A stretch of DNA of 60,040 nt, filler included, from Sphacelaria rigidula (taxonomy: Eukaryota): assembly GCA_964200075.2 (NCBI GenBank). It is 8 parts of 8 records of this genome, joined end to end, with 100 filler letters (N's around TTAATTAATTAA, not from the genome) between each part and the next. Parts side by side here need not be neighbours in the genome. Positions count along the whole stretch, not along the records: positions 22,555 to 29,972 come from CAXNAA020015018.1; 7 more parts are not named here. One strand, given 5' to 3'. Made by a program: the position numbers and the translations under genes. Positions 7,419 through 52,623 of the stretch are shown here, piece after piece. Every line of letters starts with the position of its first letter. Within the stretch, counting starts at the first letter, position 1. The notes under the pieces are model-generated. The model had not been told where the DNA came from. It searched no databases and saw nothing but the letters and a program-made list of their open reading frames with translations.

Positions 7419-7518
7419 NNNNNNNNNNNNNNNNNNNNNNNNNNNNNNNNNNNNNNNNNNNNTTAATTAATTAANNNNNNNNNNNNNNNNNNNNNNNNNN
7501 NNNNNNNNNNNNNNNNNN
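7419..7518. other. Artificial contig linker
   Basis: 44 N + TTAATTAATTAA (stops in all six frames) + 44 N. Confidence 0.98.
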
Positions 7519-12886: not shown

Positions 12887-13489
12887 NNNNNNNNNNGCAT
12901 AGTGTGAGAAAAGATTCCAGATCGCTCCAGGAATCGAAGCCCCCTACTCAACCATCAGAACTCTAGAGCTCTCATACGTCGTATGCTCTTCAAGTCTGGA
13001 CAATCTGAAGTATGTAATATACTCTACTATTCAGTAATTTCGAGGGAGGGGGCGATTGGCCACGTGTGCATTGCACGATATCTGAAAGCAAAAGTAGCGA
13101 ACGGTAATACGCGACCACACAGTTCAATACACACCGTGGCTTACTATTCCACTACATGCGTGTTTGTCGACGCCGGGCGTGACGAATTATGCGCTCTTAT
13201 TTGTCCCCACGTGCTGCCGACCTTGGCCTCCCTGTTCCCATCCTCCGCCGCTCATGGGGAGTCTCTGCCGCTGCATGCTTCAGAAGAATGCGTTTCGAAT
13301 CGTTCATCGGCTTGAATGAGATTTGAATGCCATCTAAGCTTCGTAGCTCCTCAATGTACAGGATCACAGTTTTCACCATTATCCACAATTTTTGAACGGC
13401 AGCAATCCAAACATGCAACTTTTCTTGGCTCCGGGGGAGGCGTTGTAGCGTGCGGCTTCGCCGCTCGCCACTGATGTTCCAGTTGATCA

Positions 13490-14936: not shown

Positions 14937-15036
14937 NNNNNNNNNNNNNNNNNNNNNNNNNNNNNNNNNNNNNNNNNNNNTTAATTAATTAANNNNNNNN
15001 NNNNNNNNNNNNNNNNNNNNNNNNNNNNNNNNNNNN
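14937..15036. other. Artificial contig linker
   Basis: N44-TTAATTAATTAA-N44. Confidence 0.98.
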
Positions 15037-20008: not shown

Positions 20009-22039
20009 TCCTCGAAGAAGCATCACGCGAAGGACCTGACGGTCGACGTCGCAGAAAAAAGGTGCATCACCAAGGGCTGCTCAGAGCCGCCATATCACTG
20101 TGCACAGGGCTACACGGCGGAGTTCTGCTCCAAACAAGCGACGGCGAGAGGGGTGAATGTGAAGAAGTGCGGCGACGAGGGCTGCTGCTTCAGGCCGTCT
20201 CAAGGAGTAGCTGGAGGCAAGAAAGCGGAGTTCTGCTTTGAGCACGCTAGGGCGGGAATGGTTCACGTGACAAGCAAGAAGTGCGGCTACGAGGGCTGCT
20301 CAAAGCACCCGTCGTATGGCGTAGTTGGAAGCAAGAAGACCGAGTTCTGCTTCAAGCACGCTAGGGCGGGAATGGTTCACGTGAAAAGCAAGAAGTGTGG
20401 CTACGAGGGCTGCTCAAAGCAGCCGTCTTTTGGTGTGGTTGGGAGCACAAAGGCGGAGGTCTGCTTTAAGCACGCCAGGCCGGGGATGGCAAATGTTGTG
20501 AGTAAGAAGTGCGGCTACGAGGGCTGCTCCACGAGGCCGTATTATGGTGTAGTAGGAAGCAAGAAGGCGGAGTTCTGCTCCAAGCACGCTAGGCTGGGGA
20601 TGGTGGACGTGAAAAGCAAGAAGTGTAACTACGAGGGCTGCTCAAAGCACCCGTCGTATGGTTTAGTAGGAAGCAAGAAGGCGGAGTTCTGCTCCAGGCA
20701 CGCTAGGCCGGGGATGGTGGACGTGAAAAGCAAGAAGTGTAACTACGAGGGCTGCTCAAAGCAGGCGTCTCATGGTGTAGTAGGAAGCAAGGAGGCGGAG
20801 TTCTGCTCCAAGCACGCCAGGGCGGGGATGGTGGACGTGATGAGTAAGAAGTGTAGCTATGTGGGCTGCTCCACGAAGCCCTGTTATGGTGTAGTGGGAA
20901 GCAAGAAGGCGGAGTTCTGCTCCAAGCACGCCAAGGCGGGCATGGTGGACGTGATAAGCAAGAAGTGTAGCTACGAGAGCTGCTCAAAGCAGGCGTCTTA
21001 TGGTGTAGTAGGAAGCAAGAATGCAGAGTTCCGCTCCAAGCATACCAAGGCGGGGATCGTGAATGTGCGAGTTAGTATGTGCGGCTACGAGGGCTGCTCG
21101 ACTCGGGTGTCTTGCGGTGTAGTGGGAAGCAAGAAGGCGGAGTTCTGCTCCAAGCATGCCATAGCGGGTGTGGTGAATGCTGTGAACAAGAGTTGCGGCT
21201 ACGAGGGCTGCTCCACTACGGCGTCTTATGGTATAGTGGGAAACAAGGCGGAGTTCTGCTCCAAGCATGCCAGGACGGAAGTGGTGGATGTGGTGAACAA
21301 GAACTACAGCAATGAGGGATGCTCCAACAGGCGGTCGTACGGTGTCGCGGGTAGCGCAAAGGCAACGTCCTGCTCTCAGCATGCCAGGGCGAGAATGGTG
21401 AATATGTGGAGCAAAAGGTGCAGTGAAGTGGGGTTCTCCAAATGAGTTATCCACGAGAAGCACAAAGTTGATGGAGCGACGTTTTGCCGAGAACGCACTA
21501 CTGCACGTAACACAGCTGCGATGTCTGATACCGCAAAGCTCAACACGGGGGAGGGCGCCCCCGGCCGTCGCCCGACGGAGGACAGTGAAGAAAACGTTGC
21601 TCATGTACGAAGAACGAAACGAAATCGCACGGCATTCTCGGGTCCTGTTGCGAACGACTATGTTGGTGCTCGCCGCAATGCCGATGCCGGTACCATGCAG
21701 GGTGTAAGAACGCCGTTGCTCTCGGGATGCCCAGTTTCAAGGACTGGTGGAAAGGTGACTTTTGGGACAGAAGCAGGAGTAGGGATGAAGGTAGAGGTGG
21801 CAGTCCCTTCTCCTACTCACGGTGGCGATGCGACGAGGGAGTGTCGTACGTTTGTTGCCTCTTCGAGCAGTTGGAGAAGCGCGCGTGGTGGTAGTGGCTT
21901 TGTCAGCAGTGATGGTTAAGTAATGGGCAGATATGTAGCTCCCCGGCAGACGTACCTGGACGCCTGGGCGAAGTTGATGATGTTGGTTTCTGACGAGGCA
22001 AAACAGGATTCGAACGTGAAGTTGGAGCTAGGAGTGTAA
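20009..22039 (+). pseudogene. EsV-1-7 cysteine-rich repeat gene, locus A: 11 repeats plus degenerate flanking repeats; tail disrupted
   Basis: Open frame 20009-21442 of 38-aa KKC-x4-C-x16-C-x2-H repeats. After TGA 21443-21445 the same frame continues into a tail homologous to locus B (TKRNR, MKVEVAVPS, DEAKQDSNVKLELGV*), with a further stop/frameshift near 21915-21990. True start unresolved. It could still encode a truncated ~430-aa repeat protein. Confidence 0.85.
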
Positions 22040-22454: not shown

Positions 22455-22554
22455 NNNNNNNNNNNNNNNNNNNNNNNNNNNNNNNNNNNNNNNNNNNNTT
22501 AATTAATTAANNNNNNNNNNNNNNNNNNNNNNNNNNNNNNNNNNNNNNNNNNNN
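22455..22554. other. Artificial contig linker
   Basis: N44-TTAATTAATTAA-N44. Confidence 0.98.
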
Positions 22555-22660: not shown

Positions 22661-23688
22661 ACACTCCCCGCGATGCAACAGCTGGTGCCAACTCACGCTC
22701 AGACCAAAAGCTATCGGAACAGGCACGTCTTGTCTTCACAAGTAAATAATACCGACTTCCCCCCTGATTTTTGTGTTTGGATCGAATCGAATGAATGATT
22801 CTGACGTCTGATGTTTTTGGTGTGTGGGGATGAATTTTACATAATCATTTGAAGGTATACATTGTTCCATGTCGAAGATGAGGATCATGCGCAATAACAT
22901 TCCACGTGCAAGCAAACAAGTAGATAATAACGAAAATGAGGGAAACACAAAAACGAAGTGTGGCATGAGGCGTACAATATACACAACAATGTGTCAAAAT
23001 ATCAATTAAGTAAACTTTCATATTACTCTACCGTAAATACTGCGAAATTGCCGGGTGCTTGAATGAAAAAATACAACTACACATGGAGGGGCAAACCCTA
23101 CTCTTGCGCACTTCTACACCTGCTCGCACGTACTACTGCAATACGTTGGTGTCGGGAATTTCGGCCATACCTCCTCGAAATGAAAATCGAATCATTCAAT
23201 CTCAACTTGGCACATACTACCGCACTATTTTCAGAGCGCTTTAGTCCCTGCATCCGCGCCAACAACCACTATAATCACCACGCGGTACCCATGATCGATC
23301 TATGGATTGGGTGTCTAACCCTGTCAGATGGTGACAGCAAATCCAGCTGTGACCAGGGCGGAGAGTATAAAAAAAGAAAAATCATGCAAATGTCCGACAG
23401 CAGCAAGGAAAAAAGAGTCCCACGTATTGCACATAGAGAACGAAAACAAACATAGCCAAATATCATGCTGCTCGCATCGCTCCAAAAGCATATGAGCGCA
23501 GGGATGTCGCGTCAGCTGCCATTCGCGCTGGCTCTCGTTCTCTCCCTCGGTCCGGGATGCATTGTGTTCGGGTGGGGGGCGACTTCCAACCTGGGGCACC
23601 TGAAAACTTCGACTGCTCAACTTGCACCCAGATCTGAAACGCTTCGCGCTGCCAGATGACAGTTTTGAATCCGTTATAGAGGGTAAGG

Positions 23689-24207
23689 CAGGTACCCGGT
23701 ACCGGTATTTGGGACATCTCATACCCTACCGATACCGACCCAATCCGTTATATTGAAATGTCATACCTACGATTCCTACGATTCCTACGATACCAGGGTA
23801 TTTCGATATTTGAATACCTACCGTATCCACCCAATCCGGTATTTTGGAATGTCATACCTACGATACCTACGATACCTACGAAACCAGGGTATTTCGATAT
23901 TTGAATACCTACCCTACCCGCCCAATCCGGTATTTTGGAATGTCATACCTACGATACCTACGATACCTACGACACCAGGGTATTTCGATATTTGAATACC
24001 TACCCTACCCGCCCAACCCGGTATTTTGAAATATCATACCTACGATACCTACGATACCAGGGTATTTCGATATTTGAATACCTACCCTACCCGCCCAATC
24101 CGGTAGTTTGAAATGTCATACCTACGATACCTACGCATACCACGATATGGGATACCCTGGTGAATACCGGGGGTACGCTCGGCACGGTACCTTATCTACG
24201 ACACCTG
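23689..24207 (+). repeat. Element with a 91-bp tandem repeat (~4 copies) containing nested 9-bp ATACCTACG units; CAGG...CCTG ends
   Basis: Unit starts at 23755, 23846, 23937, 24028, 24110 (spacing 91, 91, 91, 82; the last lacks one 9-mer). Confidence 0.8.
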
Positions 24208-26138
24208 TGCAGGTTTGTCTTTGTGACAGGGATGACTGGGAGAATCATACGAGTACGCACCTCTCGTATCTTTCGACGGCTCAGTACTGTATTTTCAGTA
24301 CAAGTCAAGCGTTACTTTGCTTGTGGATTTCTCGCCGTGTCTGAACGAACCAGCCTGAAATTTGGCACAGAGGTAGACCACAACACAGACAGCATACTCC
24401 CGGATCGGTGGCACGTTTTACGTGGTGCGCCAGACGCTCGAAGTGAATACAGATTCTGGGCGATGCCATCGATACGCCCTCAAAACGGAGTCCCATTGGT
24501 CCACACTGTGTGAAACGTCAATGAATGCACATATGTACACGCAGATGCGCTCACTTCCACATCATGACCTACTGGGTGGCTCGTACCCCGGAAAAGGAGC
24601 ATCGATCCGTATTGGGTACACTCTCGATGATGTCGTTTTCCGCGGTATCTATCTTGGTATCGCCTGTAGAGGCACTCACTTCAGGAGGCACGGTCGTGCA
24701 AGCCCTGTCAGTGCTTTCACGGGCAATGGATATCATGTACATGTATCATTTCACATTTTCACCGCTTTTGCCGAGTTTCCTCTGGCGGCAAGGTATGTTC
24801 TCCCACACGTCCTATCGCAGCGCACCGAGAAGGCTCAGCGGTACATTACCGTTCAGGTTTGGGCGCCATCTGATACCTGTGGCTCGTGTTCTGGCCACCG
24901 AAAGCCGCTCAAACTGGCACGTTTTCGCGCGGTGTCGATCCCGAACCACAAAAGCCTCTTCAAGGTCGTGGAAAACATGACAAAATATATATTTTCGACT
25001 TGCGTCACCCCCGGAAGGCCCGTACCAACCTCCCGAAGGGGAACCTTGTATCCACTGTATAGTTTTTGTTTCAGGTCTTGTCCCCACGGCAGTGGTGAGT
25101 CTTCCAAAATTCTGGGAGGAGCCACAAATTTTGCAAGAAACGGACGAAGTCGTTGCACAACTTGAACACTGCTGAAATTTTCACAGAGGCTGCAGAGTGT
25201 TACTCCTAGCACAAAACCATTCGGGCGAGTTTTTGCGCTGCGAGTGTAGGTCTTGCCCTAGCTGATTTGATGAAAAATCTTTCAACACATCCTTGCCAGT
25301 TTGACTCTGATGCTATTTTTTGTACAAGCGTTTTTCTGTATCGCCATTGCTCTCACGAAGTTTGCGACACAAATAAGGAGCAGATATCATGTAGAGGCGC
25401 ACAGAGCTACCGCAATAAAACACCTGCGGCAAATTAGATACGCATCCGCTTTTGAGCCGTCCCGTCCAAGAGTTCAACATTGCCGTGACCCTTCTCCCAA
25501 GCCATTCACGATCCGCGCATATTGGCAGACGATGTTGAGGACAAAGACTGGCCACCTCGCACCACATGCGCCCGTTCCAATGCGTACCCACGTGTATTGC
25601 GAATGTGATCCTGCGTAGCGATCGCTCAGTATGCCGATGACGTTATTTGGCTCCTCACTTAGCACAACTATATCTAACCGGCTCGTCCTGTCTGACGTAC
25701 CAACCCTGGCTTTTGGTATGTTTGATAATATGAATTCAGATGTCTTCGATACGGCTGAGCATGCTCAAGTATTGACATTGTGGTTAACATGTTTTGTGCG
25801 ATGAACATCTTGCTATTGCAGTTCACTAGAACTTCATCCGATCCCGATCCCTCCCGCCATTGTGTAGAGGACGTCCCATTCGGAATGATCTTGCGAGTAG
25901 CGTTGTAATTGTTAATGTCAGCTGACATGAAGCATCGTCTGCGTTTAATGCAGGCAGCTGCTGACTCTCTGAAGTATGTGCCGTAAAAGTAACGCCCCTT
26001 GTTCGACAAAGCGTTTGAACTCACTTTCACCGATGGATCACGGGGTATCTTCTGTCTTCTTGGTATTTGTGTTACGTTGAGCAGTGAAATTCCAAGGGAC
26101 CACGACACGAAGGAGTCAGTGGTCGACGTAGCCAGAAA

Positions 26139-28247
26139 GTGCGCATCAACGGGGGCTTCTCCAAGCCGCCATCCCCCGGTACACAGGGCTACAAGGCGGA
26201 TGTCTGCTCCAAGCGCACTAGGGCGGGAGTGGTAGATGTGAACAAGAAGTGCAGCTACAACGGCTGCTCCACGCACCCATCGTTTTGCGTAGCGGGGAGC
26301 AAAAAGGCGGAGTTCTGCTTCAAGCATTCCAGGGCGGCAATGGTGAATGTCGTGGACAAGAAGAGCAACTACGACGGCTGCTCAACCAAGCCGTCGTATG
26401 TTGTAGCGGGGAGCAAGAAGGCGGAGGTTTGCTTCAAGCATGCCAGAGCGGGAGTGGTGAATGTGGGGAACAAGAAGTGCAGCTACAACGGCTGCTCCAC
26501 GCATCCATCGTTTGGCGTAGCGGGGAGCAAGAAGGCGGAGTTCTGCTCCAAGCATGCTAGGGCGGGAATGGTGAATGTCGTGAACAAGAAGTGTGGCCAC
26601 GAAGGCTGCTCCACCAGGCCGTCGTATGGTGTAGCGGGAAGCAAGAAGGCGGAGTTCTGCTTCAAGCATTCCAGAGCGGGAATGGTGAATGTCGTGGAGA
26701 AGTGCAGCGACGACGGCTGCTCAACCATGCCGTCGTATGGTGTAGCGGGAAGCAAGAAGGCAGAGTTCTGCTCCAAGCATTCCAGGGCGGGAATGGTGAG
26801 TGTCGTGAACAAGAAGTGCAGCTACGACGGCTGCTCAACCATGCCGTCGTATGGTGTAGCGGGGAGCAAGAAGGCGGAGTTCTGCTCCAAGCATGCCAGT
26901 GCAGGAATGGTGAATGTCGTCAACAAAAAGTGCGGCCACGAAGGCTGCTCCACCAGGCCGTCGTATGGTGTAGCGGGAAGCAAGAAGGCGGAGTTCTGCT
27001 TCAAGCATTCCAGGGCGGCAATGGTGAATGTCGTGGACAAGAAGTGCAACTACGACGGCTGCTCAACCAAGCCGTCGTTTGGTGTAGCGGGGAGCAAGAA
27101 AGCGGAGGTTTGCTTCAAGCATGCCAGAGCGGGAGTGGTGAATGTGAGGAACAAGAAGTGCAGCTACAACGGCTGCTCCACGCATCCATCGTTTGGCGTA
27201 GCGGGGAGCAAGAAGGCGGAGGTTTGCTCCAAGCATGCTAGGGCGGGAATGGTGAATGTCGTGAACAAGAAGTGCGGCTACGAGGGCTGCTCAACCACGC
27301 CGTCGTATGGTGTAGCGGGGAGCAAGAAGGGGGAATTCTGCTCCAAGCATGCCATTGCGGGAATGGTGAATGTCGTGAACAAGAAGTGCAGCTACAACGG
27401 CTGCTCCACGCATCCATCGTTTGGTGTAGCGGGGAGCAAGAAGGCGGAGGTTTGCTTCAAGCATGCTAGGGCGGGAATGGTGAATGTCGTGAACAAGAAT
27501 TGCGGCCACGAGGGCTGCTCTACGCATCCATCGTTTGGCGTAGCGGGGAGCAAGAAAGCGGAATTCTGCTCCAAGCATGCCAGGGCGGGAATGATGGGTG
27601 TGGTGAGCGAGAGGTACGATGAAAAGAGGTGGCTTGAGGTTTCTGTCCGTAACAAGCACACCTATGATGCGGCGAAGGTCTGCCGACAGAACACCCCTAC
27701 ACAAAATACAACTGTGGTGCCCTTCAACGCGAAGCTTCACACGAGGGCGGACACCCCCGTCCGTAGCCCATCGGAGGGTGGTGGAGGAACCGTTGCTGAT
27801 GCAAGGGGAACAAAACGTAAGCGCGGAGGATTGTCGTGTTGCGGGGTAAGCAACGGTGTTGGTTGTCGCCAGAGTGCGTTCGCCGGCCCCACGCAGGGTT
27901 CAAAACCAAAGCACCCAGCTTCAAGGGCCAGTGATATGTCCTCCGAGGTGAGGGCACTAAGAAAGGTAAAGGTAGAGCTCGCAGTCCCTTCTGCTTCATA
28001 TGGTGGCGATAGGGTGAGAAAGGGTCGCGACCAGGCTGGCCGCTCGAATGGTTGGACCAGGGGAGGAATGTGTAGCGCTTTGAACAGTGGTGGTGTGAGT
28101 TCGGGGCGGCTTTGTGGTTTGCCGGCTACAGTACGTGAACGCCTGGGCACACTCAATGTTGACTTTGACGAGGCAGAGGAGGATTCGAGCATGAAGTTGG
28201 AGCTGGGAGTGCCTGGTCCTTCTCCTCGGGCGTACGATGCACTGTAA
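26139..28247 (+). CDS. EsV-1-7 cysteine-rich repeat protein, locus B: 12 tandem repeats plus a low-complexity C-terminal tail
   Basis: 702-aa open frame; repeat consensus KKCSYxGCSTxPS(Y/F)GVAGSKKAEFCSKHARAGMVNVVN resembles the EsV-1-7 motif of the Ectocarpus IMMEDIATE UPRIGHT family. Start uncertain: first in-frame ATG at 26340, possible acceptor at 26083-26084, and a 1-nt shift in the degenerate upstream repeat. Confidence 0.9.
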   Translation: MRINGGFSKPPSPGTQGYKADVCSKRTRAGVVDVNKKCSYNGCSTHPSFCVAGSKKAEFCFKHSRAAMVNVVDKKSNYDGCSTKPSYVVAGSKKAEVCFKHARAGVVNVGNKKCSYNGCSTHPSFGVAGSKKAEFCSKHARAGMVNVVNKKCGHEGCSTRPSYGVAGSKKAEFCFKHSRAGMVNVVEKCSDDGCSTMPSYGVAGSKKAEFCSKHSRAGMVSVVNKKCSYDGCSTMPSYGVAGSKKAEFCSKHASAGMVNVVNKKCGHEGCSTRPSYGVAGSKKAEFCFKHSRAAMVNVVDKKCNYDGCSTKPSFGVAGSKKAEVCFKHARAGVVNVRNKKCSYNGCSTHPSFGVAGSKKAEVCSKHARAGMVNVVNKKCGYEGCSTTPSYGVAGSKKGEFCSKHAIAGMVNVVNKKCSYNGCSTHPSFGVAGSKKAEVCFKHARAGMVNVVNKNCGHEGCSTHPSFGVAGSKKAEFCSKHARAGMMGVVSERYDEKRWLEVSVRNKHTYDAAKVCRQNTPTQNTTVVPFNAKLHTRADTPVRSPSEGGGGTVADARGTKRKRGGLSCCGVSNGVGCRQSAFAGPTQGSKPKHPASRASDMSSEVRALRKVKVELAVPSASYGGDRVRKGRDQAGRSNGWTRGGMCSALNSGGVSSGRLCGLPATVRERLGTLNVDFDEAEEDSSMKLELGVPGPSPRAYDAL

Positions 28248-28653
28248 ATGACGGAATTCCTCGTACCGATCTCGTTGCTCTCGGAGAGTGTATTGGCATG
28301 TCCTCGCATATTTTGTCAGCGACCTCGAAACGTCAATCGGTCGGCATGGTATGTTTTCTTCTCGTCATGCGAAGCAGTTCGTGAGACTTAGATCCTGGTA
28401 TCCCAGTCCTACGCTCCACCAGTTTTTGTCAAAGCGTAGTTGTCATACTTGTTGGTGGTGTGCTCATACGGAAATCTGTCAAGGGCGGGCCAATTGTACA
28501 GATACCGTACAAGCTGGACCGCCCAAGATGCGACCGGGAATGTTGAAACGCGAGTCGTGCGCTCAATTCTGGATCAAATTCGATCTAAATTTGGACATAA
28601 TGTACAGGACGTATGTGCGAAAACCCCTTTTCCCCCCACTTGTTCGTTTTTTT

Positions 28654-29060
28654 CAAAGGTAGATCGAGTATACTCAATACTCAGTATTTCTGAAGAGTCA
28701 TACTTTTAGTACTCGAAATTTGAGTAGCGTATTGAAAGCCGTACCCAACCTATTTGAAATTTGAGTAGAGTATTTGAGACCATACTCAACCTACTGAGGT
28801 CATACTCGAGTGATATAGAGTATCACTCAGAGTGCTTACTCGACATTTGAGTGGTATTTGAGGTCGTATTCGACCCACTCAAAATTCGAGTATTGTAGAC
28901 CATACTCAACATACTCGACATTTGAGTACAGTATTTGAGGCCGTACTCAACCTACTCGAACTTTGAGTACAGTGTGGAGGTCATACTAAAGTAATGCTCT
29001 ATACTCGAGTATCACTAATAATGCTTACTCGATATTTGAGTAAAGTATTTGAGGTCTACA
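28654..29060. mobile_element. Non-autonomous hAT-like fragment with GAGTA / TACTC subterminal repeats
   Basis: Start CAAAGGTAGATCGAGTATACTCAAT resembles the TIR of the 53931-54130 MITE; many TTTGAGTA / ATACTCAA motifs. Confidence 0.55.
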
Positions 29061-29972
29061 CGCGGCCATTCGGCTACCCCCTATAGACCTCTGTCACCCA
29101 AGATCAGATTGCCATGTGGGCTCCTCCCATCACGGGCACATGGACTTCAGCAGCTCTAGTAATTTACTTATTAACCCTCAGCATAAGTATAGTACAGGAG
29201 AACAGGACCATATAGCCTCTCTCCACCAGAGTGGCACAACCAAGCCTACTCGCCATGGAGGTCACCATCACAGAGTCCGGCAATCAGACCCGCAACTCCA
29301 CCTTCGATGTCCCTGACCTTAGGTAACAATAGTGGCTAGGTCTACAGCACCCCCAAAGCCCTCTACTACCAACGAGTAGTTATATTAGAGCTTGACAAAC
29401 TCAGACATCATTGGTACCTGATAGTGCCGTCGTTTTCCGCAAAGAATAGCAATCTCTTCCGCTGCTTTCGACACCAACTCCATAGAAGCTTGCCCCACTT
29501 TCGAACAACTCGCAAAAGATTCCAAGAAAATGTCGTCCATCATGAACATGCAATCACGCTACGTGCACCGCTTCGAGTAACAAAGCGATAGCTAGCGCCA
29601 AAGTCTCAAATCTTCGCCCAAAACAAGTCTCTTGACTCTTCATCGGCACGAAATCGGAAATGTCAGCAAACGTTGAATTCCAGAGCATTCGTGACTCATC
29701 GCCTCTCTCATCCGAGATAAGGATCTTCTCAACATACAAAATGCACTCTTCGTACGTTCAACACCTGCGCAACGGAGTGCAATAGCCAAATGATACATCA
29801 TCCTCACGCTAGAAGGAAATAATGCACCCAACACGTCTAAAACGCACCTGACTTCTTGCTTCTGCAACACTGTAAAAACGTATGCATCGCATACCTCCCC
29901 GCCGTCAAAGCTCCAATGCTTCAAATTGCCTTCATTTAATGAAGACAATCAAAGGAAAGCCATGGCTCAAAC

Positions 29973-30072
29973 NNNNNNNNNNNNNNNNNNNNNNNNNNNN
30001 NNNNNNNNNNNNNNNNTTAATTAATTAANNNNNNNNNNNNNNNNNNNNNNNNNNNNNNNNNNNNNNNNNNNN
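29973..30072. other. Artificial contig linker
   Basis: N44-TTAATTAATTAA-N44. Confidence 0.98.
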
Positions 30073-37489: not shown

Positions 37490-37589
37490 NNNNNNNNNNN
37501 NNNNNNNNNNNNNNNNNNNNNNNNNNNNNNNNNTTAATTAATTAANNNNNNNNNNNNNNNNNNNNNNNNNNNNNNNNNNNNNNNNNNNN
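37490..37589. other. Artificial contig linker
   Basis: N44-TTAATTAATTAA-N44. Confidence 0.98.
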
Positions 37590-45006: not shown

Positions 45007-45106
45007 NNNNNNNNNNNNNNNNNNNNNNNNNNNNNNNNNNNNNNNNNNNNTTAATTAATTAANNNNNNNNNNNNNNNNNNNNNNNNNNNNNNNNNNNNNN
45101 NNNNNN
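45007..45106. other. Artificial contig linker
   Basis: N44-TTAATTAATTAA-N44. Confidence 0.98.
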
Positions 45107-47268: not shown

Positions 47269-50200
47269 ATGGACGGATTTGGAGGCTTCGTGTTCAAGGC
47301 TGAAGCCGCTGCCGCAACCCCTGCTCGCGCAGCGAAGAAGGGTGTCAGCAGCGGCGACGCCACGACTCAGATATTGGGAGACAGATCCTCTCGCGAAAAC
47401 GTGAAGCCCGCCAACAACAGCAATAGCAGTGGTGGCAACGGCAACGCCCCGTCCACGCCCATGGCAGCTGGGCCCCTGCGCTGTGGTGCAGCGCGTGCGA
47501 GAACAGGGCGGGCGACGTGTCCAAGCAGCCAGAAGGCCTACATCCAGGTCTGTCTCTATATTAAAGTGACGAACAGCTGCTACATGCAAGGATGTACCGC
47601 TGTCTGAGTCGTTTGGCCGCTGGTTGCTATCTGTACTAGAAGTGCAACACAGTAGTCAGTAGGGTCTGTTGGTGGAGCGGCGAGGTAGCGACATGCTTTA
47701 CTCCAAATAGCGGTGCGCGAGAGCCAGGCGTGCTTCCCAAGAGAAGAAACACAGCAGTGCAGCATGCACCACTCCCTTACATACCATGTAATCATGTCGA
47801 TGATACGTCGGGGGGGGGTGGGCACGGTCGCAAATCCTTCTGCATTGTCTGTGCTGTCTTGTGAAACAAGGCAGGCATGAGACACACAACTAAAGCAGAC
47901 GCTGTACATGCGGGAATCCTCGCAGCACAGTCAGTACATGCCTTCCGCATACAGGTACCATGTGTGGTAACCACGGTACAATCTACGCAGGCATGCGACC
48001 CAACCGCAGGTAGGGCTAGAGATTATTCTCCTACATATTCACGACCACGGCATATTCGTGACCACGGCTTGGTCCCTCCGGGATCAGTTGATGTGCGACG
48101 ACCGAAATCAAATCAATTAAGCCATTCGTCTTCAGCCGGTCGCCCAGGTGGGTCAGGTGGTGACCTCGAAACCATCTTGCGCTTGTGTCGTGATCTGGGA
48201 TTTTTTTATCACACTATGCCCAACAGTGGAGAGCAACTATGTCGCGGGTACATGAAATTTGACTTCACGGTAGAAGAGGGGAAGGGACCCCTGAACCCCT
48301 CACGCGATAAAAATAAGGCAAGCACCGCAGAAGGAAGGCGAAGTACTAATAACAGAACAAGAAGCAAGAACTCCCGTGCTGGCAGTCCTCTTATGTGACC
48401 CCGGCTGATGCGGCCATGTATACTGAGAAGTGTAGACTGGCGTCCAGAATAGATGCGACGACAACACACACGAGCAAACACACACACGCACACATTCATC
48501 CTTCACTCGCTCGAACGAAACGCTCAGGCGGCGAATTGCAAGACGACGGGCTTGGGCCTGTACCCAGCCACACCCATCGCAGGACCGCCGCCACATTCGC
48601 GCGGCGGCGTGGGGCAGGCGGCGGCCGCCAGCCAGCTGATCTTTCGGAATCGCGAACTGCAAAACACAAACGAAGAGCTAGAGGGCATCCTACGCACCTC
48701 CGAGAAGGAGAAGACTCAGCTGAAGCAAAGGCTTCGCGACGTGGAAGCTCAAGTCGCCGCGCAGAGTGAAACTGCGAACGCCCTGAGGGCGGCGGCGGCG
48801 TCCGCGGCAGCCCTTGCTACGGCGGAGACCGATAAAGTAAAACGCGCTCTCGAAGCTCAGATCACGGAGCTGCGAGAGCGTCACGAGACTGACCTTGCCG
48901 CCGCTAAGGTCCGGGTGGAAGCGGCCGAGGCCGCGACCTCGCGCGCGTCGTCGGAGGCCCATGCCGCGCGATTGGCCGCTGCAAGTGCGCAGGAAACGGC
49001 CGAAGCGGCAGCGGCAGCACTGAAGATTGGAGAAGCCACGGCCAAGAAGGCGGAGGCGATCGCCAAGTCGCGGGAAGCAGAAATCAAGAACGCAGCAGAC
49101 GCTGCCGTCGAGACAGCAACGGCTTCCGCGACGAGTGCGTCCGTCGAGTTGAGCAATGCAAAAGCTGCGCTAGTCAAGGCACAGACTGCGGAAGCCAGAG
49201 CAAAAACTTCGACCGCCAAGTCTCAGGAAAGGAATGTGGCTATCCGCAACAGGCTGGCGACCATCGTGGAGCGAGTTCGGGGTGCGACGGCTCCCGGGCA
49301 AGGCGTCTCTTCCATCAGCGGGAGGAAGAGAGGTCGTGGAGCCTCCAGAGGGATTGTTATGGGGAAGCAGGTCGGGGGTCAAGGGGCAGAGAGTGATGGC
49401 GCCAACAGGTCTATGTTCTTGGAGGAGCTATGCGATCTTATATCCTTCGGAACCGGGCGTGAGCTACCCGTAGATGTTCTCGAGAGATTTTTGTCGAAGG
49501 CACCTTCCGCTTGTCCTGCTTTGCCAGCTGAAGAAGAGAAGTGCGCTCCGTCAGATGATGCTGAAGCTGAGGTGGGACCAGCGATGGTCGCGGGGGGCAG
49601 TAATATGATGGTGACGCCCGAGCCAGCGGCTCTGGCTCCCTCGGTCAACGTGTCGTCACGTTCGAAGAGTCGCAGGAAGAGGACCGGAGTTACAGTACTT
49701 GCAGCTGGCGCGGACGGTGAGGCGCACGACGCGGAAGCAGAAAGAGAGACGAAGAGGCTTCAGCGTGGGCTCGATGCATTCCCTGATGCACAATCTCAGG
49801 CCGTATCAGCTTGTCAGGAGGCGCAAGTGTCTGCGCAGCCAGAGGGGGGCAAGCCGCAGGAGGTGGCGACCCCAGCTCCGCAGCAACAGCAGCGATCAGA
49901 GGGCCGAAAGAAAGTTGTGAAGAAGCAACAAGCCAGCTGTCGGCCGTGCACAACCTCCGACGAAGGACATGACAAACCACCGCCGATGCAACAGCGGCGG
50001 CGGCAACAACAACTACAGCAGCATGTGCCAGGTGCCGCAAGCTCTCCCAAAAAATCGACCGACACCACTCTCCCCGCATTATCGCTTGTGGACGAAGCAT
50101 GCAACAGCTACGATGACGGTAGGAATGATCGTGGTGATGCAGTGTCAGAACCACTCGCAGCTGCCGCTGGTGCTGCCGACACCTCGTCTTCAGCGACCCG

Positions 50201-52419
50201 CAGTCACCCTACCGCACCTGAAGCGCCATCAGCTTCCGGGGAACATGAGGATGAAGTCGGGATCGAGGAAGTGCCCATGCCCGTTGGGGGGGGCGATTCT
50301 GACTTCGACTTGTTCGGCGGTGGCGCTGTTGCTACGCCGGTGAAGGAAGGCGCCGGGACGTGGGCAAAGGGTGTTTGCGGCGGGAGCCCGCGTGTTTTTG
50401 CCGAAGCAGCGGCGGTGACGGCGGAAGCAGTGGAGGCAGAGGTGCATGCGTGCGCCCCGGAAATTGCGGAGTTTACGGACACCGCGGAGGCTGCGTTCGA
50501 GCCGCTTGTGTCGTTTGTGGTCGGAGAGCAAGAGTTGGGGAATGCGAGTACAGCCCCAGAGTCGGAGGGAGAGGTTACCGCCGCCTCGAAGCGTGCCAGG
50601 AGGGAGAAGAAGAAAAAGGACACGGCGAAAAGCACAAGGCGTCGGAGCTTGAGGTACGGTCCGGCTTCGTCAATGGGTTTTGGGGGGCAGGGGTAAGATT
50701 CAGGTCGCGTACGTGTATGTTGCACGTCCACCATGCACATCCGCTGTGGAACGCATAAGTGTGTGTCATTCACAGAGTTTTCGTCCTATTGCACAGTTCA
50801 TGTGTCACCACTGACTCCAATGGTATAATGTGGCATTCGGTCTTGTGTGCCCTTGCGTTGCGATGGGCAGCACATCCTGCGGTAAATACAAATCATACAC
50901 ACCAAGAGCGGCACGTGGCGCGCGAGGATCATCGACAAATTCGTGTTGACCTCCCTCTACCCCTCGCATGTACCACACAGTACGATGCATTTACCCAATG
51001 TTTTAGCTCACGTTGTCAACATGCACGTGGCGCTTTTGATCTTAAGACAAATGGAGAGGAGTGCCATCCTGTTCCGGGAACGACAGCAAAGGGAGGAACA
51101 AGAACAAGAAAATGCGGCTGGAGGAGCAGCGGCACTGCTGAACTCGGGCGCCGAGGCAGCGATCGAAAACAGCACCAACGACACCACCACCACCACCACC
51201 ACCACCAACGACACTAGCGATGATCTACTCATACCGGACAGGACCACTTTCGGGGCAAACCATTCCGTCGTTGCCGCCGCCAACAAAGGCACCGCTGCGT
51301 TTGTGGACACCGCGATGATCTCCCCCGACACCAGTATCAGCACTGCCAAAAAGAAAGACTCCGGTCCTGCAAGGGCCTTTGCGAGCCCATCGAGGCGGTC
51401 TCCCCGACGTCACGGGAGCTGCGGCGGCTCCGCCGCCGACCCCGCCGCTATTTCGGCGATTCCCTTCCGGACACTCGGTGAGAAGGGGCACAACGGTGTG
51501 CTCGAGGATGATGTGGCGGGCGTACGCAGCAAAGAAGAAGGCCCATCTCGAACGGGCGTTGCGGCCGCTCGCGAGAGTGAGGGGGGGGTGCTTGGTAATG
51601 ACGGTCGGGGATGTGGTGGTGGACAGACGGCAGCGGCGGAGGCGGAGGAAGCCGTGGTATTGCCGTTCGGGCGCGAGGAGATAGCCGGAGTGACGATGAC
51701 CCCGGCCGATATTGAGCGTGTCGCGAAAGAGCTGTTTGAGGACGTGTACACACCCGGCGGTGCGCTGGCCGGGGTTCTTGCGATGGCGTGGATTTTGGCA
51801 GAGAAGGTACATAAATAAACCAAACGCTAGAAATATGGGCCTTCTGTTATTTGTTTCTGGTATGTGCGCTTGTCTGTGTATTGTAGGAATGTACGGTGTT
51901 TTGTGAAAAAAAAATGGCAGTTGTCGTGTTCGATGTCGTGGGGTTACGATTGGTGGCATCATTCACGTGAAGTTGGATGTGCTCACCGTTGGTACCGAAT
52001 ATTTTATATGTCCAGTGTTTTGCACCTCTTGTTCGTAATATCGGAGTTGAGTCTGCCGTATTCTTGTACGGTTCTACTGTGGAGACGTGGGTGTGCGCAG
52101 CCGTACCGCGCTATTGTCGCTGCTGCTGATGCTGCTGTTGCTGCTGTTACTACTGCCGCCGCTGCTGCTATTGTCAACCCCCCATTGCATCTGATTTTCG
52201 CCGTGGGCATCCTGACGATGACGAAACAGTTCGGCACGTGCGGCACCGTCCCAGCAACGGAAGCGGCCATCACCGGGGAAAGCGGGAACGCCACACGTCG
52301 GCTCCGATCACTGCTCTCGGCGTTCGTTCGAGCAGAGTCCAGCGCGATAAGGCACGGATCGGATGGTGCAATGGTCGAGGTAGCTGGCACCCAGCCGCAA
52401 GCCAAGAAGAAGGGAAAAT
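47269..52419 (+). CDS. Multi-exon gene for a coiled-coil / low-complexity protein of unknown function, 3'-incomplete; predicted exons 47269-47547, 48528-50653, 51047-51806, 52230-52419
   Basis: Phase-compatible GT-AG junctions: CAG|GTCTGT..CTCAG|GCG (0), AG|GTACGG..TTAAG|A (2; alternative donor at 50693), AAG|GTACAT..AACAG|TTC (0), T|GTGAGT. Long open exon 2 with an Ala/Glu/Lys heptad-like region and basic patches (GRKRGR, KSRRKR, RREKKKK). Confidence 0.75.
48246..48492 (-). repeat. Dispersed repeat family, copy 4 (intronic)
   Basis: Homologous to 6350-6575; lies in predicted intron 1. Confidence 0.75.
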
Positions 52420-52523: not shown

Positions 52524-52623
52524 NNNNNNNNNNNNNNNNNNNNNNNNNNNNNNNNNNNNNNNNNNNNTTAATTAATTAANNNNNNNNNNNNNNNNNNNNN
52601 NNNNNNNNNNNNNNNNNNNNNNN
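52524..52623. other. Artificial contig linker
   Basis: N44-TTAATTAATTAA-N44. Confidence 0.98.

What the first reader, a model, noticed from the sequence alone, without database searches (positions are those of the whole stretch)
26235..27610. EsV-1-7 array with one hypervariable residue per repeat: candidate TALE/ZNF-like recognition code
Seen: 12 uninterrupted repeats (38 aa; one 37) with a C-x4-C-x16-C-x2-H pattern (repeat 2 has Ser at the first Cys). The scaffold (GCST.PS.GVAGSKKAE.C.KH) barely changes, but the third residue after the second Cys reads H,K,H,R,M,M,R,K,H,T,H,H. It mostly co-varies with the inter-Cys loop (SYN-H, NYD-K, GHE-R, SDD/SYD-M, GYE-T), and blocks recur (repeats 8-9 resemble 2-3). 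Known: EsV-1-7 repeats occur in phaeovirus EsV-1 and an expanded brown algal family including IMMEDIATE UPRIGHT; I know of no established ligand. Inference: a basic zinc-binding array whose variation sits at one position filled with typical base-contacting residues is the design of TALE, PPR and C2H2 readers. It could be an undescribed modular DNA/RNA-binding system.
Basis: partly seen in the sequence, partly recalled or inferred. Interest (0 to 1): 0.8.

Follow-up and report, generated by a model that had tools for sequence, protein, structure and literature searches.

The report
Brown-algal EsV-1-7 zinc-finger array gene
This is a brown-algal gene made of twelve near-identical zinc-finger-like repeats that differ mainly at one residue, and its giant-virus relatives join the same kind of array to a DNA-cutting enzyme, which suggests the repeats read DNA.

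Summary
Window 26250-27614 (+) encodes 12 tandem 38-aa C-x4-C-x16-C-x2-H units (one has 37 aa, and unit 2 has Ser for the first Cys). Pfam EsV_1_7_cys matches at E 1.9e-185. Column 9 reads H,K,H,R,M,M,R,K,H,T,H,H and is the most variable column.

The link between column 9 and the inter-Cys loop comes from duplication history. Units of one type share synonymous variants, and family-wide column 9 does not covary with the loop.

New here:
- Column 9 is the most variable within-array column in relatives that have a nuclease tail and in those that lack it. Columns 36/35 follow, and column 11 in the viral forms.
- In 21 giant-virus arrays, only columns 9, 11 and 36 have pN above the mean pS.
- 141 of 241 retrieved homologues carry a C-terminal domain after the array. 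None of the 35 named brown-algal ones do. The predicted fold of this domain matches Vsr / I-Bth0305I-type PD-(D/E)XK endonucleases.
- The fused forms lie on giant-virus contigs.

The window's protein lacks the nuclease. Its array is very basic (+47), and its tail is conserved with Sphacelaria proteins and holds a KRKR patch.

Best reading: a nuclease-less member of a modular DNA-binding zinc-finger family (confidence about 0.5). No binding, zinc or 3D geometry was tested. A strict one-residue TALE-like code is unlikely.

The parts
26083..26085 (+). Possible 3' splice acceptor and start of the exon that carries the array. An in-frame TGA at 26085-26087 closes the array frame upstream.
   Evidence: Contigs of runs X3 and X7 (the tool guesses they are RNA; one study) match 26083-26267 and carry 27 unmatched letters 5' of 26083. 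A contig of run X1 reads straight through 25044-26267. The site follows a pyrimidine-rich stretch ending in CAG and is conserved in the paralogue. The stop-to-stop frame begins at 26088. This is a weak hint only. The 27 letters were not found elsewhere in the window.
26139..28247 (+). Open reading frame of 702 codons: array plus tail plus stop. It has no ATG before the array.
26142..26249 (+). Degenerate unit 0 (RINGGFSKPPSPGTQGYKADVCSKR plus linker). The first two Cys and the His are lost. A 1-base deletion relative to the paralogue lies just upstream.
26250..27614 (+). Twelve EsV-1-7 units of 114 nt (unit 4 has 111 nt). They start at 26250, 26364, 26478, 26592, 26703, 26817, 26931, 27045, 27159, 27273, 27387 and 27501. 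The column-9 codon is bases 25-27 of each unit.
26340..26342 (+). First in-frame ATG (Met68, in the linker MVNVV of unit 1) and a candidate start codon. Two annotated Sphacelaria rigidula homologues also begin with MVNV.
   Evidence: inference
27615..28244 (+). Non-repeat tail of 210 aa. It is 51% identical, without gaps over 208 aa, to the tail of a Sphacelaria rigidula protein, and both end in GPSPRAYD[AT]L.
   Evidence: E 2e-62
27813..27824 (+). KRKR basic patch (residues 559-562), also present in P0007 and P0012. It is a candidate nuclear localisation signal.
   Evidence: the function is inferred
28248..28786 (+). Probable 3' untranslated region.
   Evidence: Single contigs of X3, X7 and X4 span 27567-28724, 27567-28786 and 28122-28785. 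The RNA status of these runs is a guess.
20009..21919 (+). Upstream tandem paralogue. It has 11 EsV-1-7 stretches, several with lost Cys, an in-frame stop at 21443-21445 between array and tail, and then a homologous tail.
   Evidence: PF19114 E 4.3e-152; tails 37% identical, E 2e-18

Best explanation
The feature is the main coding exon of a brown-algal EsV-1-7 family gene. It is one of two tandem paralogues in the window.

The gene encodes a strongly basic chain of 38-residue C-x4-C-x16-C-x2-H modules. Each module presumably holds one zinc. A conserved tail with a KRKR patch follows the array. The array grew by recent duplication of single units and of a block of about two units. The scaffold is kept by purifying selection, while column 9, the third residue after the second Cys, changes freely.

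I read the array as a modular, sequence-specific DNA-binding domain. Each module would present column 9 to the ligand, together with columns 36/35 and, in the viral forms, column 11. The window's gene would be a nuclease-less descendant or relative of giant-virus proteins in which such an array aims a Vsr / I-Bth0305I-type endonuclease. In the alga it would act in the nucleus as a DNA-binding regulator, as proposed for IMM.

Shown here:
- the repeat anatomy and family membership;
- the duplication history of the units;
- where within-array variation sits, across the family;
- pN above mean pS at columns 9, 11 and 36 in viral arrays;
- the fusion to a predicted nuclease fold on giant-virus contigs.

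Inferred: zinc binding, DNA as the ligand, the specificity role of the variable columns, nuclear location, and a regulatory role.
For: (1) Anatomy and membership.

(2) Selection inside this array. Mean pS is 0.251 and pN is 0.112. Column 9 pN is 2.40 times the mean pS; the next columns are 4 (1.45), 2 (1.28) and 36 (1.11). On a tree built without codon 9, codon 9 needs 7 base changes, against at most 4 for any other codon. Its second position carries all four bases.

(3) Family-wide pattern. In 86 tail-bearing proteins (545 repeats), the top within-array mismatch columns are 9 (0.81), 11 (0.80) and 36 (0.79). In 83 tail-less, mostly algal proteins (506 repeats), they are 9 (0.83), 36 (0.82) and 35 (0.79).

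(4) Independent DNA set. In 40 distinct giant-virus arrays (253 repeats), the top columns are 9 (0.78), 11 (0.77) and 36 (0.70). In the 21 arrays with at least 60% internal identity, pN over mean pS is 1.47, 1.64 and 1.24 for these three columns and at most 0.81 for every other column. Bootstrap over 19 clusters gives 1.13-1.90, 1.28-2.09 and 0.97-1.53.

(5) Column 9 is mostly R (21-26%) and Q (20-22%). These are residues that often contact bases (general knowledge).

(6) Domain fusion. 141 of 241 homologues carry the motif RPD...E.DE.QH...R[FYW]NP after the array. D287, E300, D302, E303, R334, N336 and P337 are invariant in 78 sequences. The AF2 model of P0211 (pLDDT 86.3) matches, by Foldseek, McrC (E 4.5e-4), Bax1, Hjc, BstEII and R2 endonuclease domains. 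By VIA-align it matches I-Bth0305I homing endonuclease (Z 8.6, rmsd 3.1, 95 aligned of 97), Vsr (Z 7.9, rmsd 3.5, 110 aligned) and 70 chains at Z of 5 or more.

(7) The fused genes lie on giant-virus contigs. 92 of 94 candidate stretches in IMG/VR encode a relative, many are labelled GVMAG, and contigs reach 407 kb.

(8) A paper reports an N-terminal EsV-1-7 domain on an Ectocarpus Tc1/Mariner transposase (PMC12477816, passage read).

(9) Net charge is +47 over the 455-aa array. The family mean is +2.3 to +2.9 per repeat.

(10) The gene looks alive. The frame of 702 codons is open and the tail is conserved with Sphacelaria. Contigs of three runs that the tool guesses to be RNA cover its 5' part and its tail; this is a weak hint.
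Against: - No binding, zinc or localisation experiment exists for any family member in the papers I saw. They call the domain a possible novel zinc finger.
- The confident AF2 model of four units (pLDDT 92.5) matched no solved fold, DNA-binding or otherwise: no Foldseek hit at E of 1e-3 or better, and 0 of 48,161 chains at Z of 5 or more.
- I could not read model coordinates, so it is unknown whether columns 9, 11 and 36 form one surface.
- In this array only about five unit lineages exist, so the 12 letters are not 12 independent events. Codon 24 toggles F/S four times, which suggests recombination among units and inflates parsimony counts.
- Family-wide entropy at column 9 (3.50 bits) is matched by columns 2, 7, 14 and 35.
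- The window's protein has no nuclease, so its ligand may have changed.
- The four long fused forms carry unrelated domains (ubiquitin hydrolase, dynein, EF-hand, reverse transcriptase). They may be merged gene models.
- One preprint finds Ectocarpus EsV-1-7 genes peripheral in co-expression networks, like young genes.
- The nuclease assignment rests on predicted structure with a best Z of 8.6. The tool warns this is near the range of common arrangements.
Confidence: 0.5

Rival explanations
1. The array is a protein-binding (or other non-nucleic-acid) scaffold. The variable columns would form a ligand surface, as in leucine-rich or ankyrin repeats, and diversify in a virus-host or paralogue-partner arms race. 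In the viral forms the nuclease would be aimed by a protein partner, not by DNA sequence.
For: Diversifying selection at a few surface positions is equally typical of protein-recognition repeats. There is no match to any DNA-binding fold. The weak structural neighbours are LIM, RING-type and nsp13 zinc-binding domains, which mostly bind proteins. The long fusion partners are heterogeneous.
Against: The array sits N-terminal to a Vsr / homing-endonuclease-like domain in 141 of 241 homologues and, per PMC12477816, on a transposase. These are the positions where such enzymes carry their DNA-binding modules. The net charge is very high and positive. R and Q dominate column 9.
Confidence: 0.2
2. 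There is no recognition function. Column 9 is simply an unconstrained loop residue in a young, duplication-built array. The apparent code is the footprint of a few founder units copied in blocks, and the gene may be drifting towards decay like its neighbour.
For: There are five unit types, with linked synonymous variants and a duplicated block (unit 1 tail-2-3 and unit 7 tail-8-9). Column 9 does not covary with the loop family-wide. Column 9 entropy is not exceptional across the whole family. Unit 0 is degenerate, unit 2 has lost a Cys, there is a 1-base deletion relative to the paralogue upstream of the array, and no ATG precedes the array. The neighbouring paralogue has an in-frame stop and lost Cys residues.
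Against: An unconstrained site should reach pS, not exceed it. In viral arrays, pN at columns 9 and 11 exceeds the mean pS with bootstrap intervals above 1. The same columns rank first in two separately analysed groups. The rest of the unit, the tail and the open frame are conserved.
Confidence: 0.2
3. The array reads RNA (or single-stranded or modified nucleic acid) rather than duplex DNA, in the manner of PPR/PUF or CCCH/CCHC knuckle proteins.
For: The units are small zinc knuckles without a recognition helix: DSSP shows only short strands and a 3-residue helix. This is closer to RNA- or ssDNA-binding knuckles than to helix-in-groove readers. The basic charge fits any nucleic acid.
Against: The fused catalytic domains, Vsr / I-Bth0305I-like endonuclease and Tc1/Mariner transposase, act on duplex DNA in their characterised members (general knowledge).
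Confidence: 0.1

Closest known systems
EsV-1-7 domain family (Pfam PF19114; Ectocarpus IMMEDIATE UPRIGHT, phaeovirus EsV-1 gene 7)
   Same: It has the same C-x4-C-x16-C-x2-H unit in tandem 38-aa copies, above the Pfam cut-off. The nearest named relatives are brown-algal proteins, with Sphacelaria rigidula at 62% identity. Genes are tandemly clustered, as reported for the family (passage; two genes in this window). There is no other Pfam domain, as reported for Ectocarpus members (passage).
   Different: Nothing in the papers I could search or read mentions position-specific variability, selection at columns 9, 11 and 36, or a nuclease fusion. IMM orthology was not tested. The tail is of the Sphacelaria subfamily type.
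Tandem C2H2 zinc-finger arrays (for example KRAB-ZNF, PRDM9)
   Same: They work alike in design: short zinc modules in head-to-tail arrays, a conserved scaffold, a few hypervariable positions per module, diversification between modules of one array, unit duplication and recombination, and large lineage-specific gene families in tandem clusters. (The comparison is from general knowledge; the data for this family are.)
   Different: The ligand set is different (C3H with 4/16/2 spacing). The unit is 38 aa, not 28. There is no beta-beta-alpha fold with a recognition helix in the model, no Pfam zf-C2H2 hit and no structural match.
TALE repeats
   Same: Near-identical repeats with variation concentrated at very few positions. 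In this particular array there is essentially one such position.
   Different: TALE units are helical, zinc-free, 33-35 aa, with two adjacent variable residues (general knowledge). Here the units are zinc knuckles, and family-wide three to four separated columns vary.
Vsr / I-Bth0305I (EDxHD-type) PD-(D/E)XK endonucleases
   Same: The C-terminal domain of the viral relatives matches these folds: 3r3p_A Z 8.6, 1cw0_A Z 7.9, 3hrl Z 7.5. It keeps invariant acidic residues. As in homing endonucleases, the catalytic domain follows an N-terminal putative targeting region.
   Different: The window's protein lacks this domain altogether. The viral domain is not recognised by Pfam, NCBIfam or PHROGs at significance. 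No activity has been tested.
SBP-box zinc finger (first zinc site)
   Same: It has the same Cys/His spacing, as I recall it. Pfam SBP aligns residues 303-340 to profile positions 1-38 of 75.
   Different: The score is 23 bits, below the cut-off of 27, and appears in only 1 of the 29 family proteins scanned at E of 0.01 or better. There is no second zinc site. No SBP structure appears among the fold-search rows.

Membership tests
EsV-1-7 cysteine-rich repeat family (PF19114) | Match to the family profile above the curated cut-off | tested here: met
   600.8 bits against a cut-off of 25, E 1.9e-185, 12 stretches
EsV-1-7 cysteine-rich repeat family (PF19114) | C-x4-C-x16-C-x2-H motif repeated in tandem | tested here: met
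   11 exact motifs plus one with Ser for the first Cys, spaced 38 aa apart (one at 37)
EsV-1-7 cysteine-rich repeat family (PF19114) | Homology to brown-algal or phaeoviral EsV-1-7 proteins | tested here: met
   Best named hits are from Sphacelaria rigidula, Ectocarpus, Pylaiella and Ascophyllum. 6476 cluster representatives match at E of 1e-3 or better.
EsV-1-7 cysteine-rich repeat family (PF19114) | Zinc coordination by the C3H set | not testable with these tools
   Inferred from invariant Cys/His and a confident compact model. No metal was modelled.
IMMEDIATE UPRIGHT orthologue | IMM-specific N-terminal domain before five repeats (criterion quoted in the passage) | not tested
   No IMM sequence was fetched. 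This protein has no N-terminal non-repeat domain in its open frame.
C2H2 zinc-finger array | C-x2-4-C-x12-H-x3-5-H spacing and a beta-beta-alpha unit | tested here: not met
   The spacing is 4/16/2 with a C3H ligand set. There is no zf-C2H2 Pfam hit. DSSP shows no recognition helix.
TALE repeat | 33-35-aa two-helix repeat with variable residues 12/13 and no metal | tested here: not met
   38-aa Cys/His units, with only short strands and a 3-residue helix in the model
SBP domain (PF03110) | Profile match above the cut-off, covering both zinc sites | tested here: not met
   23 bits against a cut-off of 27, covering only profile positions 1-38 of 75
SBP domain (PF03110) | Shared fold | tested here: inconclusive
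   No SBP chain is listed by Foldseek or VIA-align. Absence from these lists does not exclude the fold.
Vsr / EDxHD-like PD-(D/E)XK endonuclease (viral relatives) | Restriction-endonuclease-like alpha/beta core with conserved acidic residues | tested here: met
   For P0211 and 77 aligned relatives: Foldseek best E 4.5e-4; VIA Z 8.6 (rmsd 3.1, 95 aligned), Z 7.9 (rmsd 3.5, 110 aligned), and 70 of 1000 chains at Z of 5 or more. D287, E300, D302 and E303 are invariant. The structure is predicted only.
Vsr / EDxHD-like PD-(D/E)XK endonuclease (the window's own protein) | Presence of the nuclease domain | tested here: not met
   The motif is absent from P0001 and from all 35 proteins that a source names as brown-algal. 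The tail instead matches Sphacelaria tails.

The most novel reading that the evidence does not exclude
EsV-1-7 arrays are an unrecognised class of modular, evolvable DNA-recognition domains. In giant viruses they would serve as the targeting arm of natural zinc-finger nucleases: homing-endonuclease-like genes with a Vsr/EDxHD-type catalytic domain. Two to four specificity residues per 38-aa module (columns 9, 11, 35/36) would be under diversifying selection. Brown algae would have captured the array without the nuclease and expanded it into their largest family of sequence-specific regulators, of which this gene and IMM are members. If a residue-to-base relationship exists, it could be read out from viral enzymes and their cleavage sites.
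Probability: 0.35. Interest if true: 0.9.

Novelty: new variant of a known kind. Interest (0 to 1): 0.72.

Why it matters
EsV-1-7 proteins form one of the largest gene families in brown algae, with up to 335 genes per genome (passage). The family includes the developmental regulator IMM. Yet the papers I could read give no biochemical function for the domain.

Two results turn this open question into defined experiments:
- Within-array variation and pN above pS concentrate on the same few columns.
- Most non-algal relatives place the array in front of a predicted endonuclease.

The experiments that follow are binding-site selection for the arrays, cleavage-site mapping for the viral enzymes, and residue swaps at named positions.

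If the reading holds, it would explain how a virus-related domain became a source of new regulators in an independent multicellular lineage. It would also add a new protein scaffold for sequence-specific DNA recognition.

Tried and rejected
- **SBP lead.** The spacing is the same by recall, and P0001 gets a sub-threshold Pfam hit (23 against 27 bits). None of 28 other family proteins hit SBP at E of 0.01 or better, and no SBP chain appears in the fold searches. I did not adopt it.
- **Sequence search of solved structures.** Neither the array nor the profile of fused proteins gave anything below E 1.
- **Fold searches with the four-unit model.** Foldseek gave 36 rows at E of 10 or better and none at 1e-3. 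VIA-align gave 4 of 48,161 chains at Z of 2 or more, best 2.3. The second look at Foldseek's own rows gave 6 of 36 at Z of 2 or more. So there is no assignable fold.
- **Profile libraries for the viral tail.** Pfam, NCBIfam and PHROGs gave no significant family. There are only faint PHROG rows, one called homing endonuclease at E 8e-4.
- **Whole genome of the window.** Not held, so a genome-wide census of repeats in this organism was not possible. I used 241 database homologues and 80 viral loci instead.
- **Sequencing runs.** No RNA holder is listed. The runs laid are contigs whose RNA status is the tool's guess, so I use them only as a weak hint. The 27 unmatched letters 5' of 26083 were not found in the window at up to 3 mismatches, so no upstream exon could be placed.
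- **Longer fused forms.** Only 4 were found, with unrelated domains. They are probably merged gene models and are not informative.
- **Macaisne et al. 2017.** The paper could not be read. What I say of it comes from other papers' passages and from recall.
- **Supplementary tables.** I did not open those of the Phaeoexplorer preprint (Table S17, family lists).
- **Three-dimensional placement of columns 9, 11 and 36.** Model coordinates are not exposed, so I did not attempt it. The idea that strands at columns 12-14 and 31-33 pair antiparallel and bring 9 next to 36 is my guess from the DSSP string.
Full report
**What is there**

The window holds an open frame at 26139..28247 (+) of 702 codons. 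From stop to stop it runs 26088..28247. Tandem Repeats Finder reports a 114-nt period over 26193-27593: 12.3 copies, 84% matches, score 1878. It also reports a 342-nt period at 87% matches. Pfam EsV_1_7_cys (PF19114) matches at E 1.9e-185 in 12 stretches.

A motif scan places the first Cys of the units at 26250, 26364 (Ser instead of Cys), 26478, 26592, 26703, 26817, 26931, 27045, 27159, 27273, 27387 and 27501. Every unit has 38 residues except unit 4, which has 37. Column 9, the third residue after the second Cys, reads H,K,H,R,M,M,R,K,H,T,H,H. Its entropy is 2.12 bits, the highest of the 38 columns. Columns 4, 2, 36 and 3 follow, and 16 columns never vary. Two additions apply: a degenerate unit 0 lies at 26142-26249, and several other columns vary between two residues.

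**History of the array**

The DNA shows that the units fall into a few lineages:
- Units 1, 3, 9 and 11 are 90-98% identical; unit 12 is 82-87% identical to them.
- Units 2/8 are 96% identical.
- Units 4/7 are 96% identical.
- Units 5/6 are 92% identical.
- Unit 10 is closest to unit 6, at 92%.

H-type units share linked synonymous variants around codon 9 (TCC ACG CAY CCA, then TTT). All other units have TCA/TCC ACC ANG CCG, then TAT or TTT. The linker of unit 1 equals that of unit 7, so the stretch from the unit 1 tail through unit 3 is a copy of the stretch from the unit 7 tail through unit 9.

The association between column 9 and the inter-Cys loop is therefore inherited, not independent. 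In a pooled set of 1247 repeats from the family (after an 80% identity filter), column 9 has no strong covarying partner. The best z is 1.4, with column 19, and the loop column 3 reaches 0.9.

On a neighbour-joining tree built without codon 9, that codon still needs 7 base changes, against at most 4 for any other codon. Its second base takes all four values among the non-H units (AAG, AGG, ATG, ACG). Codon 24 toggles F/S four times, which suggests exchange between units and warns against over-reading parsimony counts.

**Selection**

I counted Nei-Gojobori differences between units of the window's array. The result is pS 0.251 and pN 0.112, so the units are under purifying selection overall. 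Column 9 has a pN of 2.40 times the mean pS. Columns 4, 2 and 36 are at 1.45, 1.28 and 1.11. With about five lineages this is suggestive, not significant by itself.

**The family at large**

A full HMMER search of 1.84 billion cluster representatives gave 6476 proteins at E of 1e-3 or better. In the best 150 there are 807 canonical repeats (806 unique). Across all of them column 9 has 3.50 bits, no more than columns 2, 7, 14 or 35. So column 9 is not uniquely variable between proteins.

Within proteins the picture is different. I took 242 stored proteins and kept those with at least four canonical repeats. In the 86 proteins with a nuclease tail (545 repeats), the columns with most mismatches between units of one protein are 9 (0.81), 11 (0.80) and 36 (0.79). 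In the 83 proteins without a tail (506 repeats), they are 9 (0.83), 36 (0.82) and 35 (0.79). An earlier cut of the same data is, where column 9 is in the top three in 45 of 102 proteins.

Column 9 is mostly R (21-26%) and Q (20-22%).

**An unexpected partner domain**

An alignment of homologues showed a conserved C-terminal block. A motif for it (basic-x-D ... E.DE..H ... R[FYW]NP) is present in 141 of the 241 stored homologues: 90 of the 150 representatives and 51 of 91 further hits. It is absent from the window's protein and from all 35 hits that a source names as brown-algal. Pfam, NCBIfam and PHROGs do not recognise it.

I modelled one fused protein (P0211, 403 aa, with 77 aligned relatives). 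The model has mean pLDDT 86.3, and an alpha/beta domain spans 253-399.
- Foldseek's three hits at E of 1e-3 or better are McrC chains. The next rows are Bax1, Hjc, AF1548, BstEII and R2 endonuclease domains.
- VIA-align on Foldseek's top 1000 gives I-Bth0305I homing endonuclease (3r3p_A: Z 8.6, rmsd 3.1, 95 of 97 residues aligned), Vsr (1cw0_A: Z 7.9, rmsd 3.5, 110 aligned) and a DUF559-type protein (3hrl: Z 7.5). In all, 70 chains reach Z of 5 or more, nearly all restriction-endonuclease-like nucleases.
- D287, E300, D302, E303, R334, N336 and P337 are invariant in the 78 sequences.

The Z values are only just above the range the tool calls common. However, the homogeneous hit list and the conserved acidic motif make a Vsr-like PD-(D/E)XK nuclease the clear reading.

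**Where the fused genes live**

A scan of IMG/VR with P0211 found 94 candidate stretches, of which 92 encode a relative. The 80 loci kept lie on contigs of up to 407 kb, many labelled as giant-virus metagenome-assembled genomes. One such record of 330 kb has two genes of this kind.

These loci gave DNA for an independent test. 57 of the 80 loci have at least four canonical repeats, giving 40 distinct arrays and 253 repeats. Within-array mismatch is highest at columns 9 (0.78), 11 (0.77) and 36 (0.70).

In the 21 arrays with at least 60% internal identity, mean pS is 0.288. The ratio of pN to mean pS is 1.47, 1.64 and 1.24 at those three columns, and at most 0.81 at every other column. Resampling 19 clusters of arrays gives intervals of 1.13-1.90, 1.28-2.09 and 0.97-1.53. 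This is a counting method without a codon model, and gene conversion between units is not modelled.

**Structure of the array**

Four units of the window's protein, modelled with 138 homologues, give mean pLDDT 92.5 and pTM 0.61. Each unit shows short strands at columns 12-14 and 31-33 and a 3-residue helix at the C-x2-H knuckle in some units. No solved structure resembles it, and no solved relative is found by sequence.

**The gene itself**

The 210-residue tail is 51% identical, without gaps over 208 residues, to the tail of a Sphacelaria rigidula protein (E 2e-62). It contains a KRKR patch also present in two Sphacelaria homologues. The array carries a net charge of +47.

There is no ATG before the array. 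The frame is closed by a TGA at 26085-26087, and the first in-frame ATG is at 26340, in the linker of unit 1. Two annotated Sphacelaria homologues also begin with MVNV.

Contigs of runs that the tool guesses to be RNA (one study) cover 26083-26267 and 27567-28724/28786. In two of these runs the first contig carries 27 unmatched letters 5' of 26083, directly behind a pyrimidine-rich stretch ending in CAG. A contig of another run reads through that point. The site is conserved in the paralogue. This looks like a spliced 5' leader and an intron-less coding exon, but it is a weak hint only.

The upstream paralogue (20009-21919) has 11 Pfam stretches and several lost Cys residues. It also has an in-frame stop between array and tail, so it may be decaying.

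**Literature**

The term EsV-1-7 occurs in 11 held papers. The passages I read call the domain a possible novel class of zinc finger. They report up to 335 genes per brown-algal genome, often in tandem, and link it to giant viruses and to IMM. One paper reports an EsV-1-7 domain at the N-terminus of an Ectocarpus Tc1/Mariner transposase (PMC12477816).

Searches for EsV-1-7 with endonuclease, for the Pfam and InterPro accessions, and for EDxHD with giant virus found no description of the nuclease fusion or of position-specific variability. The original 2017 paper and the preprints' supplements could not be read.

**Verdict**

The family assignment is right, and the family is already known. The covariation argument fails.

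The core idea, that the array is a modular reader with a few specificity positions, gains support from three results obtained here:
- the same columns vary within arrays across the family;
- they alone show pN above pS in viral arrays;
- the array is the N-terminal partner of a predicted DNA endonuclease in most non-algal relatives.

I put DNA binding at about 0.5 and a protein-binding scaffold at 0.2. An unconstrained loop without function is at 0.2, and RNA or single-stranded nucleic acid as the ligand at 0.1. A strict one-residue code of the TALE kind is unlikely. The family looks more like C2H2 arrays, with several contact positions per unit.

Noticed in passing
window 20009-21919 (+): A second EsV-1-7 gene lies about 6 kb upstream of the first. 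It has 11 Pfam stretches, three units with a lost Cys, and an in-frame stop at 21443-21445 between the array and a homologous tail. Its column 9 reads R,H,Q,R,H,Q,K,Q,R,T. It is probably a decaying tandem paralogue.
   Followed up: partly
window 7419-7518, 14937-15036, 22455-22554, 29973-30072, 37490-37589, 45007-45106, 52524-52623: Pairs of 44-N runs separated by 12 bases recur every 7517-7518 bases. Two 10-N runs lie at 12887 and 31897. The regular spacing looks like masking or an assembly artefact rather than biology.
   Followed up: no
window 23576-24307 and 28456-29900: In run X1 the summed contig depth is in the tens to hundreds of thousands here, against 44-91 for single contigs over unique parts of the gene. 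41-nt tandem repeats lie at 28715-28987. High-copy repeats or transposon remnants appear to flank the gene.
   Followed up: no
window 48453-50696 (+): A 747-codon open frame, rich in Ala, Glu and Lys with coiled-coil-like stretches and basic ends, has no Pfam match at E of 1e-3 or better.
   Followed up: no
P0211 residues 216-237 and alignment A2: The viral fused proteins have an extra invariant C-x4-C-x12-C-x2-C motif between the last EsV-1-7 unit and the nuclease domain. It may be a further zinc site.
   Followed up: no
P0018, P0015 and several brown-algal hits: Some EsV-1-7 proteins also match Pfam PF24906 (WRKY19 zinc finger domain). P0018 scores 35.3 bits against a cut-off of 27. This may link the family to a plant zinc-finger motif, although papers state that the family is absent from land plants.
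   Followed up: no
window 26319-26321 and the same codon (24) in each unit: Codon 24 alternates TTC (Phe) and TCC (Ser) in a pattern that needs four changes on the unit tree. This suggests gene conversion or recombination between units.
   Followed up: partly
G001 (viral record behind L014), 83203-83979 (-) and 152113-152889 (+): One 330-kb giant-virus record carries two separate EsV-1-7 array genes, with open frames of 486 and 474 aa. The fused genes can therefore be multi-copy within a virus.
   Followed up: no
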